64,000 bases of DNA from Pseudomonadota bacterium (GTDB lineage Bacteria > Pseudomonadota > Alphaproteobacteria > UBA11222). The translations under genes and the position numbers were made by a program. Where the stretch lies: NCBI GenBank assembly GCA_049323435.1, contig JBMOMX010000035.1, forward strand, positions 10,357 to 74,356. Direction: 5' to 3'. Positions 54,646-60,290 of the stretch are shown here, piece after piece. Within the stretch, counting starts at the first letter, position 1, and each line of letters opens with the position of its first letter. The notes under the pieces are model-generated. The model made no database searches and was not told the origin of the DNA. It worked only from the letters and a program-made list of their open reading frames with translations.

Positions 54646-57600
54646 GTGCGATTTACCCGGCTTCGCCTATCGGGCTTCAAAAGCTTCGTCGAACCAGTGG
54701 AATTGCGAATCGAGCCTGGGCTGACCGGCATTGTCGGCCCCAATGGCTGCGGCAAATCCAATCTGGTAGAGGCGCTGGGCTGGGTCATGGGCGAAGGCTC
54801 GGCCAAGCAGATGCGCGCCAGCGGCATGGATGATGTGATTTTCGCTGGCAGCGCCGGGCGCCCGGCCCGCAATATGGCCGAAGTAGGACTGGTCGTTGAT
54901 AATAGCAGCCGCACCGCCCCGGCCCATCTGAATGACGCTGATCAGCTTGAAATCACCCGGCGCATTGAACGCGAGGCGGGCTCCATCTACCGTATCAATG
55001 GCCGGGATGCGCGCCAGCGCGATGTCGCGCTGCTGTTCGCCGATGCGGCCAGCGGGCCGCGCTCCACCGCGATTGTCCGGCAGGGCCGCGTTGGCGCGCT
55101 GATCAATGCCAAGCCCAAGGAACGCCGCGCCATTCTGGAAGAAGCCGCCGGCATCAGCGGGTTGCATTCACGCCGCCACGAAGCGGAACTGCGTCTGCGC
55201 GCGGCCGAAACCAATTTGACCCGCCTCGATGACATTATGACGCAGCTTGAAACCCAGATCGCCGCGCTGAAACGCCAGGCGCGCCAGGCGTCACGCTATC
55301 GCAATCTGTCGGAACATATCCGCCACGGCGAAGCCCTGCTGTTTCATCTGCGCTGGCAGGAGACCGAACAGGCGGTGTCGCTGGCTGCTGAATTGCTGGA
55401 ACAGGCCGAAGCGCGGGTTGTGGACGCCACCACCGCTGCTGCCGCCGCCGCGACGGCGCAATTGGAGGCCGCCGAAGCCGTGCCGCCGCTGCGCCAGATC
55501 GAAGCCGAGGCCGCCGCTGCGCTGCACCGTCTGTCAGTGGCGCGCGACAGTCTGGAGGCCGAAAGCGCGCGCATCGCGCAACAAACCCAGCGCAGCGAAG
55601 CCAATTTATCGCAGGTCCAGCTCGATCAGTTGCGCGAAGGCGCGCATGTCAGCGACTCGGATCACGCCCTGCAACAGCTTGGTCAGGAACGCCAGGATCT
55701 CGAAGCCGCCGAGGCGGAGCAACATGGCCGGGGCGGCACGCTGCGCGATGAGGTGGCGCACGCCGCTGCCGCGCTGAAAACCAGCGAAGCGGCGCTGGAT
55801 AGTGCCACACGCCGGCTGTCCGATCTGATCGCCCAGCGCGAAAGCCTGAACCGCGAGATAAGCCAGACCCGGCAGCGTTTTGACCGGCTGGTCCAGCAAT
55901 TGACCGCCATCACGCAGGAGCGCACCCGGTTGCAGGCTGAAATGCCCGCTGCTGAATTGACGGCGGAAATGGAACAGCGCACCCTTGAGGCCCGCCAGGC
56001 GGTTGTTGCGGGCCGCGAGGCCGTAAGCCTTGCGGAAATCCGGCGCGAGGAAACCCAGAAGACCGAAGCCGCGCTGCGCGAAATATATCAATCCGCCCGC
56101 ACCGCAACCAGCGGGCTGGCGGCGGAAGAAAAAGCCCTGAGCGAGGTGCTGAATGATCGCGGCGGCGATCTGTGGCCGCCGCTGGTGGATGCGCTGCGTG
56201 TGGCGCCGGGATATGAAACCGCCCTTGGCGCGGCGCTGGGCGATGATCTGGAATATCCCAGCGATGACGCAGCCCCGGTGCATTGGGCGCTGCTGGCGGG
56301 CGATGGCCCATTGCCGCCACTGCCCGCAGGCGCCCAGCCGCTGGACCGCTATGTAACCGGTGCGCCCGCTTTGGCGCGCCGCCTGTCACAGATCGGCGTG
56401 GTGGCTGCATCGGATGGCATTTTTCTGCGTGCGCAGCTTAAACCCGGTCAGCGTCTGGTCAGCCTTGAGGGCGCGCTCTGGCGCTGGGATGGCTTTACCG
56501 CCGCCGCCGATGCGCCCACCGCCGCCGCAAGACGGCTGGAAATGCGCAACCGGCTGGGCGATGTTACGCTGCGCCGTCAACAGGCGGACGCACAATTACA
56601 AAGCGCGCGTGAGGCTTTCGAACAGGCCTCACATGCCGCTGCCACGGCGCGCAGCACTGAGGCGGATAGCCGCCGCTATGTCCGGCAAAAGGAAGAAGCG
56701 CTTTCCCAGATGCTGGATGCGCAGGCGAAAGCCGAACGCGAACTGCTTAACCGCACCGCCCGCCTGGCCGCTCTGGTCGAAGCGCAGGCGCGCATCGAAA
56801 ATGAATGCGCCGAGGCTGACCGGCACAGCCGGGAAACCGCCCAGGCGCGCGATATGCTGGAACCCGAAGAACAGCCCCGTGCCGTGGTGGCGGGCTTGCG
56901 CATCGAGGTTGATCTTGGACGTTCTTTATTGAGCCAGGCGCATGGCGCGCTGGATGCTTTTACGCGCGAGGCCAGTGCGCGTGCGCAGCGCCTTCAGGTC
57001 ATTGCGCGCGATCATGGCGCCTGGGCCACGCGCAAGCAGGCGGCGGCCCAGCAGCTGGAGGTTCTGGCCGCACGCGAAGCCGAGCTGAACACAGAGCTGG
57101 AAAATCTGCGCGCCCAGCCGCATGAAATTGAACAGCGGATGCAATCCCTGCTCAGCGAAATTGCCGGCGCGAGCCAGCGCCGCGATCAGGCGGCAGTCAG
57201 CCTTGCAGAGGCCGAAGCCTTACAGAGTGCACAGGACAAGGCGGCCCGCGCCGCACAAAATCATCTGGGTGAAATGCGCGAGGCGCGGGTGCGGCTCGAA
57301 GCAGCGGCGGGCGCCGCGCTGGAGCGCGCAAAGGATCTGGCGGATCAAATTCAGGAGCGGCTGGAATGCGGGCCGCAAGACTGTCTGCGTCTGGCCAATC
57401 ATGAGGATGGCGCGGCGCTGCCGGACATGGACACGGTCGAGCGCAATCTGGCGCGCTTCAAGCGCGAACGCGAGAATATGGGCGCGGTCAATCTGCGCGC
57501 CGAGGAAGAATCGCGCGAACTGAAGGAACGCCTGGAAGGCATGACCCGTGAACGCGCCGATCTCGAAGCCGCCATCGCGCGCCTGCGCCAGGCGATTGGC

Positions 57601-58104
57601 AGCCTGAACCGCGAAGGCCGCGAACGGCTGCTGAAAGCCTTCACCATCGTCAACGAACATTTCGCGCGCCTGTTCGTGCATTTATTTGGCGGCGGCAATG
57701 CGCGGCTGGAATTGATCGAATCCGACGATCCGCTGGAAGCGGGCCTGGAAATTCTGGCCAGCCCGCCCGGCAAGCGCCTGCAATCCATGGGCCTGATGTC
57801 GGGCGGTGAACAGGCGCTGACGGCGATGGCGCTGATTTTTGCGGTGTTCCTGACCAATCCGTCGCCCTTGTGCGTGCTGGACGAAGTGGACGCGCCGCTC
57901 GATGACGCCAATGTGGAGCGGTTCTGCAATCTGCTTGATGAAATGACCCGCTCGACCGAAACCCGGTTTCTGGTCATCACGCATAATTCCGTCACCATGT
58001 CGCGCATGGACCGCCTGTTCGGCGTCACCATGGCCGAACGCGGCGTCAGCCAGCTTGTCTCCGTCGATCTCGAACGCGCCGAAAAACTCCGCGCCGTGGG
58101 GTGA
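54646..58104 (+). CDS. smc: Chromosome partition protein SMC
   Basis: 1152 aa with an N-terminal Walker A GPNGCGKSN, long coiled coils, a hinge, and the C-terminal signature LSGGEQALTAMAL with Walker B. Confidence 0.93.
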   Translation: MRFTRLRLSGFKSFVEPVELRIEPGLTGIVGPNGCGKSNLVEALGWVMGEGSAKQMRASGMDDVIFAGSAGRPARNMAEVGLVVDNSSRTAPAHLNDADQLEITRRIEREAGSIYRINGRDARQRDVALLFADAASGPRSTAIVRQGRVGALINAKPKERRAILEEAAGISGLHSRRHEAELRLRAAETNLTRLDDIMTQLETQIAALKRQARQASRYRNLSEHIRHGEALLFHLRWQETEQAVSLAAELLEQAEARVVDATTAAAAAATAQLEAAEAVPPLRQIEAEAAAALHRLSVARDSLEAESARIAQQTQRSEANLSQVQLDQLREGAHVSDSDHALQQLGQERQDLEAAEAEQHGRGGTLRDEVAHAAAALKTSEAALDSATRRLSDLIAQRESLNREISQTRQRFDRLVQQLTAITQERTRLQAEMPAAELTAEMEQRTLEARQAVVAGREAVSLAEIRREETQKTEAALREIYQSARTATSGLAAEEKALSEVLNDRGGDLWPPLVDALRVAPGYETALGAALGDDLEYPSDDAAPVHWALLAGDGPLPPLPAGAQPLDRYVTGAPALARRLSQIGVVAASDGIFLRAQLKPGQRLVSLEGALWRWDGFTAAADAPTAAARRLEMRNRLGDVTLRRQQADAQLQSAREAFEQASHAAATARSTEADSRRYVRQKEEALSQMLDAQAKAERELLNRTARLAALVEAQARIENECAEADRHSRETAQARDMLEPEEQPRAVVAGLRIEVDLGRSLLSQAHGALDAFTREASARAQRLQVIARDHGAWATRKQAAAQQLEVLAAREAELNTELENLRAQPHEIEQRMQSLLSEIAGASQRRDQAAVSLAEAEALQSAQDKAARAAQNHLGEMREARVRLEAAAGAALERAKDLADQIQERLECGPQDCLRLANHEDGAALPDMDTVERNLARFKRERENMGAVNLRAEEESRELKERLEGMTRERADLEAAIARLRQAIGSLNREGRERLLKAFTIVNEHFARLFVHLFGGGNARLELIESDDPLEAGLEILASPPGKRLQSMGLMSGGEQALTAMALIFAVFLTNPSPLCVLDEVDAPLDDANVERFCNLLDEMTRSTETRFLVITHNSVTMSRMDRLFGVTMAERGVSQLVSVDLERAEKLRAVG

Positions 58105-58117
58105 GGGTGGGGGAATA

Positions 58118-59482
58118 TTGGCTGATAAATCACAACGCCTGCGTGACCCCATCCATGGCCTGATTATCTTTGATAGAGATAATGAAATTGATATGTTGGC
58201 ATGGCGTCTGATTCAGACACCAGAATTCCAGCGATTGCGCAGGATTAAGCAACTTGGACTTTCGGAGTTCGTCTATCCCGGCGCAACACACACCCGATTC
58301 GCCCATTCCATTGGCGTTTATCACAATGCCCGAAAGCTGATGGGGATTGTGAAGAAATCAAAGGGTGAGGGGTTTGATGAGCGCCGCTCAAAGGTTATTT
58401 TAATTGCGGCTTTGCTACATGATATCGGTCACGGACCATTTAGCCACGCCTTTGAGGTGGCACGTGAAGCAATCGCCAAGATGCGCGGCATCGAGGCTGT
58501 TGAGAGGCATGAAAAATTTACAGCTAAATTGATTCTCGCTGAGGATGGTGATCTTCTCCCAATTTTGAATGCTTTCGATGGGGCTCTTGCCAAAGATATT
58601 GCAAAACTGGTTGTCGCCGATGATCCAACTGATATTTATCATGCGGTAGTTTCAAGCTCTTTTGACGCTGACCGTCTCGACTATCTGGTGCGTGACCGCT
58701 ACATGACAGGTGCGTTAACGGGCTCGGTCGATTATGACTGGTTAATGGATAATCTCGAGACTTACGATTTACATGTCCCACAGGACGACGACCCACCACG
58801 TTTAATGCCTACTTTCGTATTTAAGGCGAAAGGCCGACAGGCGGCAGAGGATTTTCTTCTTGCTCGCTATCGGCTCTATACTCAAGTTTATCTCCATAAA
58901 ACTACCCGTGGTTTCGAAAAATTGATTTCGGCCTTGTTCGAGCATGTCGCCAGCGGCGTGCGTCCCCAAGAGTTAGGTCTTGATCCCACTCACCCACTTG
59001 TGAGATTTTTGTCCCAAGATGGCGAATCACTTCAAGATTATCGTCGGCTTGACGATACAGTGATCTGGGGTGCTGTCGAATGCATGACTCAGTGCCAGGA
59101 TGAGCGCGCTAACAGCCTTGCTAAACGGTTGTGGCATAGACAGAATCTAAAAGTATTAGACCTCTCAGTTGCTTACGGGCATGACGAGGAACAAAGACTC
59201 AATGCTGGAAAGCGGGTTGCTAAGCATGTGAGCAGTCAGCTTGGAAAAACTGTCTTTCAGGACGAACCTCGCTATAACCTTTACTCTCGTTCTGGTGCCG
59301 AGGCTGAAAAGGCTCATAAAATGGTGCGCGTGTTAGAGGGTAGTGGTGGTCAACGTGAGATAACCGAATTTGACGACACGATCATTAGCAAGAGATTAAG
59401 GGAAAACACGACTTTGACCAGATATTACTTCTTTTCTGCGGAAGAATGCCGAGACGCTGAGAAGGCCATGAGGGGGAACTAA
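58118..59482 (+). CDS. HD-domain phosphohydrolase, SAMHD1/COG1078-like (putative dNTP triphosphohydrolase)
   Basis: DPIHGLI...FQRLRRIKQLG...HTRFAHSIGV...LLHDIGHGPFSHAFE, and a C-terminal RYRLYTQVYLHK. Its GC is about 48%, against about 62% in the flanks. TTG at 58118 has GGGGG 6 nt upstream. The ORF reaches back to 58055, inside smc. Confidence 0.8.
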   Translation: MADKSQRLRDPIHGLIIFDRDNEIDMLAWRLIQTPEFQRLRRIKQLGLSEFVYPGATHTRFAHSIGVYHNARKLMGIVKKSKGEGFDERRSKVILIAALLHDIGHGPFSHAFEVAREAIAKMRGIEAVERHEKFTAKLILAEDGDLLPILNAFDGALAKDIAKLVVADDPTDIYHAVVSSSFDADRLDYLVRDRYMTGALTGSVDYDWLMDNLETYDLHVPQDDDPPRLMPTFVFKAKGRQAAEDFLLARYRLYTQVYLHKTTRGFEKLISALFEHVASGVRPQELGLDPTHPLVRFLSQDGESLQDYRRLDDTVIWGAVECMTQCQDERANSLAKRLWHRQNLKVLDLSVAYGHDEEQRLNAGKRVAKHVSSQLGKTVFQDEPRYNLYSRSGAEAEKAHKMVRVLEGSGGQREITEFDDTIISKRLRENTTLTRYYFFSAEECRDAEKAMRGN

Positions 59483-59487
59483 AAGCC

Positions 59488-59997
59488 ATGATAGAGAGCG
59501 AAAAGCTGGTGCACACCGTCCTTCAAGCTGCCGAGGGTGAGATCATTGGACGTATTCGGCTACAGAAGATTTTTTATCTTCTGGAACAGCTTGGTTTGGG
59601 GGGCGGGTTCCGTTTTTCTTACCACAATTTCGGCCCTTACTCCGAGGACCTGACCCATGCGCTTTTACTAGCCCGGATATTGGAAAAGACTATCAAAGAA
59701 GAAAAGGTTTCTAACGGATCGGGTTTTTACAGCATATATTCCGTCGTTAAGAAAGATCTCTCCCTCCCAAAAAAAATCGGCAGTCTTCGGGCGGAGGAAA
59801 TAAAAGAGTATATTAGCCGGATGAAGCAAACATCTTCTGTCGAGATAGAATTAGCTGCCACTATCCATTGGCTACGCAAAAAAGAAAAGGTGGGAGACTG
59901 GCGTTCTGAAATCAAAGCTCGCAAAGCCTCAAAAGCCCAGGACGCGGCAATTAGTAAGGCGGAAGAATTACTCAGGGGGCTTGGCCTGGCTGCATGA
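59488..59997 (+). CDS. Hypothetical protein, possibly Panacea-domain (DUF4065) antitoxin-like
   Basis: 169 aa. The RIRLQKIFYLLEQLGL...FRFSYHNFGPYSEDL pattern resembles Panacea domains (LQKLLYxxQ...GPYSxxL). It lies 5 nt after the HD gene and has the same low GC. Confidence 0.55.
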   Translation: MIESEKLVHTVLQAAEGEIIGRIRLQKIFYLLEQLGLGGGFRFSYHNFGPYSEDLTHALLLARILEKTIKEEKVSNGSGFYSIYSVVKKDLSLPKKIGSLRAEEIKEYISRMKQTSSVEIELAATIHWLRKKEKVGDWRSEIKARKASKAQDAAISKAEELLRGLGLAA

Positions 59998-60149
59998 ACC
60001 TTTCTCCCGTTGATCGCATCAGTACTTGTGGCGATAAAACGAAATCGAGGGAATTAAAAGACTTTACCCTTTAACTCCCTCCAATGAGCGTGCCCGGACG
60101 CGCAGCCTTACCCCAGCGATGTGTAGATCACCCGCAGCAAGGATCGCGC

Positions 60150-60266
60150 GGTCATCGCCGACAGCACCTTCGCCCATGCGGTTCATGACATGGGAAAGGG
60201 TGAGCGCGGTGTCAGCCAGCCTGTCTCGGTTGATCTCGAACGCGCCGGGAAATGCCGTACCGTGAG
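60150..60266 (+). pseudogene. Degenerate duplicate of the smc 3' terminus at the far end of the low-GC insert
   Basis: 60201-60246 matches smc 58036-58081 at 41 of 46 positions. Translated, it gives ...GERGVSQPVSVDLERAGK... against SMC ...AERGVSQLVSVDLERAEK... Confidence 0.6.
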
Positions 60267-60290
60267 ATAAAGCGCGGCATGTATCCGGAT

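What the first reader, a model, noticed from the sequence alone, without database searches (positions are those of the whole stretch)
58118..59997. SAMHD1-like HD phosphohydrolase paired with a putative Panacea-domain protein: a candidate toxin-antitoxin or anti-phage nucleotide-depletion module
The 455-aa protein has the full COG1078/SAMHD1-type HD core (HxxxFxHSLGV...LLHDIGHGPFSH) and the C-terminal RYxLYxQVYxHK region of dNTP triphosphohydrolases. dNTPases of this fold are documented anti-phage effectors.

The next gene is 5 nt downstream. It is 169 aa, with LQKIFYLLEQLGL...FGPYSEDL, which resembles the Panacea (DUF4065) antitoxin fold that neutralises diverse toxins.

The pair is horizontally acquired and lies inside a housekeeping block. 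An HD-dNTPase plus Panacea pairing would be an unusual combination.
Basis: partly seen in the sequence, partly recalled or inferred. Interest (0 to 1): 0.8.

Follow-up and report, generated by a model that had tools for sequence, protein, structure and literature searches.

The report
SAMHD1-like dNTPase with antitoxin-like partner
A foreign two-gene cassette inserted after smc encodes a SAMHD1-type nucleotide-destroying enzyme and a small partner related to the toxin-binding domain of the DarG antitoxin; this pairing is widespread and already catalogued, but nobody has tested what it does.

Summary
Two tightly linked genes (58118-59482 and 59488-59997, + strand) form a low-GC insert (GC3 0.46-0.49, neighbours 0.66-0.72) at the 3' end of smc. 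A degraded copy of the smc end lies 2.17 kb downstream.

The large protein is a SAMHD1/EF1143-type HD phosphohydrolase (COG1078), and all its catalytic residues are conserved.

The pairing is not unusual:
- An HD gene lies directly upstream in 77 of 80 alphaproteobacterial loci, in ever-changing contexts.
- It also occurs in a Synergistaceae genome, a predicted viral contig and the Bacillus-type ywfO-ywgA region.
- The Panacea paper's dataset lists HD(YdhJ)-PanA pairs as an untested toxin class (T34).

About 14 of the roughly 90 distinct loci examined lie next to restriction-modification-like, Zorya or Gabija-like genes.

My best reading is a dNTPase held in check by a dedicated antitoxin-like binding partner, here probably an accessory defence or addiction cassette. 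A non-immune role in dNTP-pool control is a serious rival. No function has been tested. It is a new member of a known kind, of moderate interest.

The parts
58118..59482 (+). HD gene: SAMHD1/EF1143-type (COG1078, YwfO/YdhJ-like) HD phosphohydrolase, 454 aa, TTG start
   Evidence: Pfam HD 4.6e-11 and HD_assoc_2 1.4e-7, both above cut-off. PDB matches: 2o6i 2e-44, 2q14 4e-37, SAMHD1 about 1e-21. H58, R60, H63, H101, D102, H110, D183, D185, R186, D188, R192, D193, Y258 and H260 are invariant in 66 paired homologues; H105 is in 65 of 66.
59488..59997 (+). Partner gene: 169-aa YwgA-family protein, a stand-alone homologue of the DarG C-terminal (DarT-binding) antitoxin domain; Panacea-like at superfamily level only
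58105..58117 (+). smc-HD junction with a purine-rich Shine-Dalgarno-like stretch (GGGTGGGGGA); there is no separate intergenic promoter region
   Evidence: Sequence read directly. No promoter-like site lies between smc and the HD start; the only +-strand promoter-like match (58170-58197) is inside the HD gene, and promoter-like sites are no more frequent than in shuffles.
58036..58098 (+). Functional 3' end of smc; upstream copy of the 63-nt direct repeat that brackets the cassette
   Evidence: the repeat finder family D1, reference copy. In frame with SMC, 54646-58104.
60150..60267 (+). Decayed second copy of the smc 3' end (remnant). It marks the right-hand limit of the rearranged or inserted segment
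   Evidence: 60202-60264 is 83% identical to 58036-58098. It translates to ERGVSQPVSVDLERAGKCRTVR*, read. Homology with the 81%-identical relative (L090/L091) stops at 60019.
60047..60081 (.). Long imperfect hairpin just downstream of the partner gene; a possible terminator at the cassette end
   Evidence: Terminator-like site called on the - strand: 16 pairs, T-rich tail. Terminator-like sites are not enriched over shuffles, so this is weak.

Best explanation
This is a mobile two-gene module.

Gene 1 encodes a SAMHD1/EF1143-type HD enzyme that most likely hydrolyses dNTPs to deoxynucleosides plus triphosphate. This is inferred from homology and intact catalytic residues.

Gene 2 is translationally coupled to gene 1. 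It encodes a YwgA-family protein with the fold of the DarG C-terminal domain, a module whose known job is to bind a partner enzyme and block it.

The likeliest mechanism (inferred) is that the small protein binds the HD enzyme directly and holds its dNTPase activity in check. Loss, displacement or titration of the partner, for example during phage infection or when the cassette is lost, would free the enzyme. The dNTP pool would then collapse and DNA replication would stop.

In this genome the cassette is a horizontally acquired accessory element at the smc 3' end. It most probably serves as a nucleotide-depletion defence or toxin-antitoxin-like addiction module.

Shown here: the homologies, the strict gene pairing, the co-divergence of the two genes, the foreign composition and the variable contexts. 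Inferred: the physical interaction, the inhibition, the substrate and the immune role.
For: HD identity.

Partner is a DarG C-terminal domain homologue. Ref. 51 of PMC13621843 describes that domain as the one that binds and inhibits DarT.

Strict pairing:
- HD sequence lies directly upstream on the same strand in 77 of 80 species-level loci. Two more loci are cut by contig ends. A 4-nt overlap is typical.
- More distant members (Synergistaceae, Rhizobium, Roseospirillum) are also paired.
- Look-ups that started from the HD protein also find the partner.

Co-divergence: pairwise identities of the two proteins correlate at r=0.83, Mantel 0/999.

Accessory and mobile character:
- GC3 0.46-0.49 against 0.66-0.72, and a duplicated smc end.
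- 141 immediate neighbours fall in 149 mostly singleton Pfam families.
- Only 207 hits among 185,579 species genomes, although the search patterns were narrow.

Defence neighbourhoods:
- 12 loci share at least part of a cassette of SNF2 helicase, Eco57I/DrmMI-like methyltransferase, HD, YwgA and HNH. Two of them adjoin a full Zorya system.
- One locus has Gabija-like OLD-TOPRIM plus UvrD genes, and one has EcoRII/Vsr/Dcm.

Decay pattern fits a toxin: the HD gene is broken or absent with the partner intact in L040, L086, L036, L030 and L091/92. I saw no intact HD of this clade without a partner, but the sample is small and biased.

Precedents:
- An unrestrained defence dNTPase is toxic and needs a restraining partner in Clover (PMC12265719).
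- HD(YdhJ)-PanA pairs are listed as putative toxin-antitoxin class T34 (PMC8832971 Dataset S1).
- A phage contig carries an orphan partner homologue (L105). This recalls phage orphan DarG-like anti-defence genes (PMC11825919).

The cassette is intact in all 10 contigs of this population that carry the identical IhfB.
Against: - No experiment exists, and no in-silico complex model could be made. Binding and inhibition are pure inference.
- The same gene pair sits in a stable, syntenic, housekeeping-looking region in Priestia (the Bacillus ywfO-ywgA region). COG1078 enzymes are treated as core DNA-metabolism genes in Firmicutes (PMC3814617, PMC4993169).
- Most alphaproteobacterial loci have no recognisable defence neighbour. 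Several lie beside DNA-metabolism genes (smc, uvrB, uvrA, gyrB-recF-dnaN, recJ, parC, nrdJ). That could equally indicate a role in dNTP supply.
- Neither protein is recognised as a complete known system in PADLOC. The HD matches the dGTPase model only over about 90 N-terminal residues.
- There is no PF13274 hit.
- Some of the 'broken HD' cases are probably long-read MAG frameshift errors.
Confidence: 0.45

Rival explanations
1. This is a non-immune nucleotide-metabolism module. The HD enzyme is a dNTP-pool regulator or 'sanitiser' of non-canonical nucleotides, and YwgA is its regulatory or specificity subunit, as presumably in the Bacillus ywfO-ywgA operon. The copy here was simply acquired sideways.
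For: The pair occurs in the conserved ywf-ywh chromosomal region of Priestia megaterium, among pta, rsfA, speEB and a PBP1A gene, with clear homology of both proteins. YwfO-type enzymes are discussed as core DNA or nucleotide housekeeping genes. DNA replication and repair genes recur as neighbours. The cassette is fixed and intact in this population.
Against: The distribution in Alphaproteobacteria is patchy, the context keeps changing and the composition is foreign. The pair is embedded in restriction-modification-like, Zorya and Gabija-like islands in a minority of loci. The partner's only characterised relative is an antitoxin domain. HD-only decay occurs with the partner retained.
Confidence: 0.3
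2. This is a purely selfish type II toxin-antitoxin addiction cassette, with an HD toxin and a Panacea/DarG-C-terminal-like antitoxin. It stabilises itself or adjacent DNA and has no role against phage.
For: The T|A gene order with a 4-nt overlap resembles the PanAT pairs, and HD(YdhJ)-PanA is listed as putative class T34. Antitoxin-domain homology. Orphan partners remain after HD decay. The contexts are mobile and variable.
Against: The 'toxin' is 454 aa and is a conserved housekeeping-type enzyme in Firmicutes. No integrase, plasmid or prophage backbone lies nearby in the window. Defence-island association points to immunity rather than bare addiction.
Confidence: 0.1
3. The small protein is chiefly a winged-helix DNA-binding regulator (an autorepressor of the operon or a DNA-targeting factor), not a protein inhibitor of the HD enzyme.
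Confidence: 0.08
4. The HD enzyme is not a dNTP triphosphohydrolase. It acts on another substrate, such as NTPs, modified or signalling nucleotides, or nucleic acid, so the module does not work by dNTP depletion.
For: HD-superfamily substrates are diverse. Sequence matches to SAMHD1 cover mainly the N-terminal 115 residues. A 2016 review speculates that YwfO acts on modified nucleotides or RNA 5' ends.
Against: The match to the dNTPase EF1143 covers about 340 residues (2e-44) and includes the SAMHD1-type motifs beyond the metal site (R60, H105, H110, DxDRxDY, Y258/H260), which are invariant in the family. The HD_assoc_2 region is present.
Confidence: 0.07

Closest known systems
Bacillus-type ywfO-ywgA operon (COG1078 HD protein plus 'uncharacterized protein YwgA')
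   Same: Same two protein families, in the same order and on the same strand, with a short gap. In Priestia megaterium the HD protein is 33% identical (E 5e-51), and the 169-aa partner matches the family profile at hhalign probability 98.3%. JGI names many family members YwgA.
   Different: In Priestia the pair lies in a conserved housekeeping region. Here it is a low-GC insert in a variable context. Neither version has a tested function. That the Priestia region corresponds to B. subtilis ywfO-ywgA rests on my knowledge of B. subtilis gene order, not on a tool result.
PanAT (Panacea) toxin-antitoxin pairs, putative class T34: HD domain-containing protein (CDD YdhJ) plus PanA (Kurata et al. 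2022, PMC8832971 Dataset S1)
   Same: A COG1078-type HD protein directly upstream (T|A) of a small antitoxin-like protein, with spacing of -17 to +23 nt. It is proposed as a toxin-antitoxin pair.
   Different: Those five entries are from Clostridia, and their antitoxins were found with DUF4065. The partner here and 35 relatives do not hit PF13274. Class T34 was marked 'notest', so it gives no functional evidence.
DarTG toxin-antitoxin/defence system (DarG C-terminal domain, PDB 7YK3)
   Same: The partner is homologous in sequence and fold to the DarG C-terminal domain that binds and inhibits the DarT toxin (function from ref. 51).
   Different: There is no macrodomain and no DarT. The neighbour is an HD phosphohydrolase instead of an ADP-ribosyltransferase. 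Only the type II 'bind and block' half of DarG could apply.
Clover defence system (CloA dGTPase plus CloB nucleotidyltransferase; PMC12265719)
   Same: A two-gene module in which a dNTPase effector is toxic on its own and is restrained by the product of the adjacent gene.
   Different: CloA is about 33% identical to the Dgt-type Shewanella dGTPase, which matches this HD protein only weakly (9p8w, E 9e-6). The restraint there is a small nucleotide (p3diT) made by an NTase. Here the partner is a non-enzymatic binding-domain protein.
Single-gene anti-phage dGTPase (Dgt type; Tal et al. 2022; PADLOC dGTPase, NCBIfam NF041026)
   Same: HD-superfamily dNTP triphosphohydrolase, with nucleotide depletion as the defence principle.
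   Different: This protein matches those models only over about 90 N-terminal residues and far below cut-off (23 bits against 400). It belongs to the SAMHD1/EF1143 branch and always has a partner gene.

Membership tests
SAMHD1/EF1143-type HD dNTP triphosphohydrolase (COG1078) | H...HD...D metal site plus the SAMHD1-type catalytic and substrate residues | tested here: met
   H63, H101, D102 and D183/D185, together with R60, H110, R186, D188, Y258 and H260, are invariant in 66 homologues; H105 is in 65 of 66. Pfam HD 43.5 bits against a cut-off of 22.
SAMHD1/EF1143-type HD dNTP triphosphohydrolase (COG1078) | Long-range sequence similarity to solved dNTPases and presence of the HD-associated region | tested here: met
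   2o6i (EF1143) 2e-44 over residues 8-346; 2q14 4e-37; 2hek 2e-31; fungal and human SAMHD1 1e-30 to 1e-19. PF19276 31.6 bits against a cut-off of 23.1.
SAMHD1/EF1143-type HD dNTP triphosphohydrolase (COG1078) | dNTP to deoxynucleoside plus triphosphate activity; nucleotide-dependent oligomerisation | not testable with these tools
   Needs an enzyme assay and SEC or cryo-EM.
Dgt-type anti-phage dGTPase (PADLOC dGTPase; NCBIfam NF041026/NF003701) | Full-length match at or above the curated cut-off | tested here: not met
   23 bits against cut-offs of 383-400; only residues 29-121 align.
Panacea / DUF4065 (Pfam PF13274) antitoxin domain | Match to the PF13274 profile | tested here: not met
   No hit at E<=1 for the window protein. 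No hit at E<=10 for 30 family members, nor for 5 further relatives and a DarG protein. UniRef nevertheless names P0088 and P0397 'Antitoxin SocA-like Panacea domain-containing protein'.
Panacea / DUF4065 (Pfam PF13274) antitoxin domain | Fold shared with Panacea proteins | tested here: inconclusive
   Foldseek against BFVD: a phage Panacea-domain protein at E 0.3, probability 0.90, TM 0.45/0.56. The afdb50 library was unavailable. PMC13621843 asserts that DUF4065 is homologous to the DarG C-terminal domain.
Panacea / DUF4065 (Pfam PF13274) antitoxin domain | Neutralises the toxicity of the adjacent gene product by complex formation | not testable with these tools
   Needs co-expression toxicity and rescue tests and a pull-down.
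DarG antitoxin (DarTG) | C-terminal DarT-binding domain | tested here: met
DarG antitoxin (DarTG) | N-terminal macrodomain (ADP-ribosylglycohydrolase) and an adjacent DarT gene | tested here: not met
   The protein is 169 aa with no Macro hit. The upstream gene is the HD gene. NCBIfam antitoxin_DarG scores 39 bits against a cut-off of 250. A true DarG control shows Macro plus an adjacent DarT.
YwgA family / ywfO-ywgA-type operon | Homology of the small protein to Bacillaceae YwgA-position proteins, with a COG1078 HD gene immediately upstream on the same strand | tested here: met
   hhalign probability 98.3%, E 1.3e-14 to the Priestia protein. HD upstream in 77 of 80 loci and in all further look-ups.
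Type II toxin-antitoxin system | Adjacent, co-oriented, translationally coupled gene pair inherited as a unit | tested here: met
   5-nt gap here; a 4-nt overlap is typical elsewhere. Mirror-tree r=0.83, Mantel 0/999.
Type II toxin-antitoxin system | Toxin arrests growth; the labile antitoxin neutralises it by binding | not testable with these tools
   Only indirect evidence: HD decay with the partner retained in about 5 loci.
Clover (CloA-CloB) | Partner is a Pol-beta-type nucleotidyltransferase that makes an inhibitory nucleotide | tested here: not met
   The partner has no NTase hit in Pfam, NCBIfam or PADLOC and folds as a winged helix plus a helical domain.

The most novel reading that the evidence does not exclude
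The YwgA/DarG-C-terminal-like protein is a protein 'safety catch', and perhaps also the infection sensor, for a bacterial SAMHD1 homologue. This would define a widespread, previously untested family of nucleotide-depletion immune modules gated by a protein inhibitor rather than by a nucleotide signal. Phages would carry orphan YwgA-like genes (such as the one on L105) as decoy antitoxins to keep the dNTPase switched off.
Probability: 0.3. Interest if true: 0.7.

Novelty: new member of a known kind. Interest (0 to 1): 0.45.

Why it matters
SAMHD1-type dNTPases restrict viruses in animals, and dNTP depletion is a proven bacterial defence. So far the bacterial examples are Dgt-type enzymes, either alone or controlled by a nucleotide signal (Clover).

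If this module works as proposed, it would be a protein-gated bacterial SAMHD1 homologue. It would also give a function to the long-uncharacterised YwgA family and the ywfO-ywgA operon. And it would extend the partner range of the DarG-C-terminal/Panacea-type antitoxin fold to a nucleotide-pool enzyme.

The test is simple, because it involves only two genes. If the housekeeping reading is right instead, the pair is an ordinary horizontally moved metabolic operon.

Tried and rejected
- Pfam PF13274 membership: searched three times and never found.
- PHROGs: nothing significant for the partner (best E 9e-4, to a family of unknown function). The HD protein hits phage family phrog_35128, also of unknown function.
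- PDB sequence search with the single small protein: only a chance hit to a designed protein. The family profile was needed.
- The afdb50 fold library was not available.
- In-silico complex: I built 66 paired HD+linker+partner sequences. I did not submit them, because structure prediction accepts only window or database sequences and returns no interface data. There is therefore no complex model.
- Metagenome scan with the single HD protein returned only 3 near-identical loci, so it could not test whether an HD gene of this clade ever occurs without the partner.
- Looking for an 'empty site' through the exact IhfB protein: all 10 contigs carry the cassette, so no insertion-free allele was seen.
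- PADLOC 'mad3' and 'mad8' hits among neighbours: the mad3 hits mirror the Pfam ABC_tran hits (5 members each, best E about 1e-56), so I read them as ABC-transporter false positives. The mad8 hits were not checked and were set aside. Neither was counted as evidence for a MADS system.
- Charge or pI pattern that might indicate a DNA-mimic partner: none is consistent. The family median pI is 6.3 and the window protein's is 9.4.
- No tRNA, Rfam RNA, integrase or transposase at the cassette. Promoter-like and terminator-like sites are not enriched over shuffles.
- Literature: no paper combines 'triphosphohydrolase' and 'Panacea'. The 'YwgA' and 'YwfO' searches gave no functional study.
Full report
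**Observation.** The HD gene runs from 58118 to 59482 on the + strand. It starts with TTG, 13 nt after the smc stop at 58104, behind a GGGTGGGGGA stretch, and encodes 454 aa. The second gene runs from 59488 to 59997 (169 aa) and starts 5 nt after the HD stop. Every quoted motif is present.

GC falls from about 0.62-0.66 in smc to 0.47 over the pair. GC3 is 0.459 and 0.494, against 0.66-0.72 in six neighbouring genes. The flanks are housekeeping genes: dciA, dsbA and smc upstream; a small membrane ORF, ihfB, sppA, rpsA, cmk and aroA downstream.

One detail is new. The last 63 nt of smc (58036-58098) recur at 60202-60264 with 83% identity. That copy translates as a decayed SMC C-terminus. The cassette therefore sits between a working and a vestigial smc 3' end, which is the signature of an insertion or recombination event. 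No tRNA, Rfam RNA, integrase or transposase lies at the site.

**The large protein.**
- Pfam gives HD (E 4.6e-11) and HD_assoc_2 (E 1.4e-7), both above their cut-offs.
- Against solved structures the best matches are the bacterial dNTPase EF1143 (2o6i, E 2e-44 over residues 8-346), 2q14, 2hek, a fungal SAMHD1 (9mr6) and many human or mouse SAMHD1 entries at about 1e-21.
- Dgt-type dGTPase models match only about 90 N-terminal residues and score far below cut-off. This includes the curated anti-phage dGTPase models.
- In 66 homologues that have the partner gene, H58, R60, H63, H101, D102, H110, D183, D185, R186, D188, R192, D193, Y258 and H260 are invariant, and H105 is in 65 of 66.

It is a catalytically intact SAMHD1/EF1143-type (COG1078) enzyme. 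The dNTPase activity itself is inferred, not shown.

**The small protein.** It has no Pfam hit at all. None of 30 family members, and none of 6 further relatives, hits PF13274 even at E<=10. What it does match is the C-terminal part of DarG:
- PADLOC DarG, model positions 165-319 of 329, E 4e-13.
- NCBIfam antitoxin_DarG, positions 183-311, E 4.6e-10, below cut-off because the macrodomain is missing.
- A family profile against all PDB sequences finds only 7yk3 chain B, the M. tuberculosis DarG C-terminal domain in complex with DarT (E 1.3e-3).
- An AlphaFold2 model from a 30-sequence alignment is very confident (pLDDT 96). Foldseek finds 7yk3_B/D (E 1e-4, TM 0.61) and nothing else significant.
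- hhalign of the family against a bona fide DarG next to DarT on an Agrobacterium Ti plasmid gives probability 96.9%.

JGI annotates many members as 'uncharacterized protein YwgA'.

The link to Panacea is indirect:
- A phage Panacea-domain protein is a weak fold match (E 0.3, probability 0.9).
- UniRef names two members Panacea-domain proteins.
- A 2026 paper states that DUF4065 proteins are homologous to the DarG C-terminal inhibitor domain (PMC13621843).

It fails the family's own profile test.

**Is the pairing real and is it unusual?** It is real, and it is common.
- A scan of one genome per species found 207 relatives of the small protein, almost all in Alphaproteobacteria. In the 80 loci kept, HD sequence lies directly upstream on the same strand in 77, two more loci are cut by contig ends, and one (L036) lacks it. 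A 4-nt overlap is the usual junction.
- More distant members (about 33-40% identity) in Synergistaceae, Rhizobium leguminosarum and Roseospirillum are paired too.
- Look-ups that started from the HD protein also find the small gene.
- Pairwise identities of the two proteins across 66 pairs correlate at r=0.83 (Mantel 0/999), so they are inherited as a unit.
- A full HMMER scan of 1.84 billion representative proteins finds 2,497 clusters at E<=0.001. The best 150 are nearly all stand-alone proteins of about 165-180 aa.
- On a Priestia megaterium replicon the same pair (HD 435 aa, partner 169 aa) lies among pta, rsfA, a DUF1450 gene, a tautomerase gene, a site-2 protease gene, a YwhD-family gene, a PBP1A gene and speEB. 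From my knowledge of B. subtilis gene order, this is the ywfO-ywgA region. Both proteins are clear homologues of the window proteins.
- Dataset S1 of the Panacea paper lists 'HD domain-containing protein, CDD YdhJ' (the COG1078 name, from my own knowledge of the COG naming) paired T|A with PanA in five Clostridia genomes. It is putative class T34 and is marked 'notest'.

The combination is therefore catalogued but functionally untested. I found no paper that studies it.

**Context and mobility.**
- Contigs from this population carry the cassette. The 4 places shown for the identical small protein (of 23 contigs read) have the same layout, and the 10 contigs with the identical IhfB all have both genes intact. 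No empty site was found.
- A relative at about 81% nucleotide identity has the same smc-HD-partner junction, but an atpI operon follows. Homology with the window ends at 60019. The linkage to smc is therefore older than this species, while the right flank differs.
- Elsewhere the neighbours differ almost every time. 141 immediate neighbours fall into 149 Pfam families, nearly all singletons.
- Twelve loci from diverse Alpha- and Betaproteobacteria share at least part of a cassette of SNF2 (DpdE/DrmD-like) helicase, 1,320-aa Eco57I/DrmMI-like methyltransferase, HD, partner and HNH endonuclease. In two of them a complete Zorya type I system is adjacent.
- The Synergistaceae locus adjoins OLD-TOPRIM ATPase and UvrD genes, a Gabija-like pair. 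Another locus lies near EcoRII/Vsr/Dcm. One lies beside an LPD3 polyvalent protein. One predicted viral contig carries the pair (L104), and another phage contig carries an orphan partner homologue (L105).
- Against this, most loci show no defence neighbour. DNA-metabolism genes recur next to the pair: smc, uvrB, uvrA, gyrB-recF-dnaN, recJ, parC and nrdJ.

**Decay pattern.** The HD gene is interrupted, truncated or absent while the partner stays intact in L040 (a 930-nt insertion), L086 (a deletion that fuses half of the HD gene to the partner), L036, L030 and L091/92. Five further frameshifted cases are in MFD-labelled MAGs, which I take to be long-read assemblies, and may be sequencing errors. 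I saw no intact HD gene of this clade without a partner. The sampling started mostly from the partner, so the asymmetry is only suggestive.

**Mechanism.** The HD enzyme most likely depletes dNTPs. The partner has the fold of a domain whose known function is to bind and block its cognate enzyme (DarG C-terminal domain on DarT; ref. 51). The two genes are translationally coupled and co-diverge. An unrestrained defence dNTPase is toxic and needs a restraining partner in the Clover system.

I therefore propose a protein-gated dNTPase. The partner binds the HD enzyme and keeps it off, and release of the enzyme collapses the dNTP pool. In this genome the cassette is foreign and accessory, which together with the defence-island cases favours an immune or addiction role (confidence about 0.45).

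The main rival (about 0.3) is a non-immune dNTP-pool module with a regulatory subunit, as the stable Bacillaceae context suggests. Lesser rivals are a purely selfish toxin-antitoxin pair, a partner that is mainly a DNA-binding regulator, and a substrate other than dNTPs. None of the functional steps has been tested, and I could not obtain a complex model.

**Comparison and novelty.**
- It works like a type II toxin-antitoxin pair, or like a Clover-style restrained effector.
- It is a member of the COG1078 HD family and of the YwgA family.
- It is not a DarTG system: there is no macrodomain and no DarT.
- It is not a Dgt-type defence dGTPase.
- By the Pfam test it is not a PF13274 Panacea protein, although it is probably a distant relative.

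Because the gene pair is already named (ywfO-ywgA) and listed as putative PanAT class T34, this is a new member of a known but uncharacterised kind. Interest is moderate (0.45). It does point to a cheap, decisive experiment on a widespread and unexplained SAMHD1-homologue module.

Noticed in passing
window 60150-60267 (repeat core 60202-60264), compared with 58036-58098: A decayed second copy of the smc 3' end lies 2.17 kb downstream of the real one (83% identity). It reads ..ERGVSQPVSVDLERAGKCRTVR*. This suggests the cassette arrived together with a replacement smc end, and the original end was left as a remnant.
   Followed up: partly
L026, L031, L033, L041, L048, L049, L050, L051, L056, L064, L073, L075 (for example L031:2-9268): A recurrent five-gene arrangement in diverse Proteobacteria: DpdE/DrmD-like SNF2 helicase, 1,320-aa Eco57I/DrmMI-like methyltransferase, HD, YwgA-like protein and HNH_2 endonuclease. 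Not every listed locus has all five genes. It may be a composite restriction-modification-like defence system that uses the HD pair as a module. In L056 an M78 (IrrE-like) peptidase gene is inserted before the HD gene.
   Followed up: partly
L031:9461-16458 and L049:10788-16169: Zorya type I genes (ZorA, ZorB, ZorC, ZorD; very strong PADLOC hits across the two loci) lie immediately next to the helicase-methyltransferase-HD-YwgA-HNH cassette. These loci are true defence islands.
   Followed up: partly
L105:5983-6495 (IMG/VR contig, 39 kb): A phage contig encodes an orphan YwgA-like protein (170 aa, family HMM E 8e-20) with no HD gene. Nearby are an ORF that looks by eye like an HNH/homing endonuclease and a 1,057-aa ORF; neither was searched. 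It could be an anti-defence decoy, by analogy with phage orphan DarG-like antitoxins.
   Followed up: no
L104:4527-6486 (IMG/VR contig, 46 kb): A predicted viral or prophage contig carries the complete HD-YwgA pair (HD E 4e-131, partner E 2e-44 against the family HMMs).
   Followed up: no
L086:7407-8492 (Bradyrhizobium elkanii WSM2783); L040:5697-8011 (Mesorhizobium sp. AaZ16): Natural decay forms. In L086 a deletion fuses HD residues 1-212 in frame to the partner from about residue 17. In L040 the HD gene is split by an insertion of about 930 nt while the partner stays intact.
   Followed up: partly
L099 (Priestia megaterium p2_CACC119, NZ_CP140268.1, 313467-325889): A 410-kb record deposited as a 'plasmid' carries what looks like core chromosomal synteny (hemQ, pta, rsfA, HD, YwgA-like gene, YwhD-family gene, PBP1A gene, speEB). 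It is either a chromid or a mis-assigned chromosomal piece.
   Followed up: no
L094:8262-11974 (Synergistaceae MAG): A Gabija-like pair (OLD-like TOPRIM/AAA_15/AAA_21 ATPase, 612 aa, plus a UvrD-type helicase, 625 aa) lies about 750 nt downstream of the HD-YwgA pair, with one tRNA-binding-domain gene in between.
   Followed up: no
P0088 (Hoeflea poritis), P0397 (Roseospirillum parvum): UniRef calls these family members 'Antitoxin SocA-like Panacea domain-containing protein', yet neither hits PF13274 in the Pfam copy used here, even at E<=10. This is a discrepancy between annotation sources.
   Followed up: partly
L017, L093, L106 (uvrB); L005 (gyrB-recF-dnaN); L009 (class II ribonucleotide reductase); L095 (recJ); L106 (parC); window (smc): DNA replication, repair or dNTP-supply genes are neighbours of the pair in many otherwise unrelated loci. 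uvrB lies upstream (directly, or one gene away in L106) in three loci. I did not test whether this is an insertion preference, shared ancestry or a functional link.
   Followed up: no
window 60047-60081: A 35-nt imperfect hairpin (16 pairs) lies between the partner gene and the smc remnant. It is called terminator-like only on the - strand.
   Followed up: no
PADLOC model PDC-M19A (294 aa) against window 59488-59997: The small protein weakly matches (E 4e-4) the first 138 positions of the candidate-defence protein PDC-M19A. This hints that a YwgA-like N-terminal domain also occurs in another candidate defence system.
   Followed up: no
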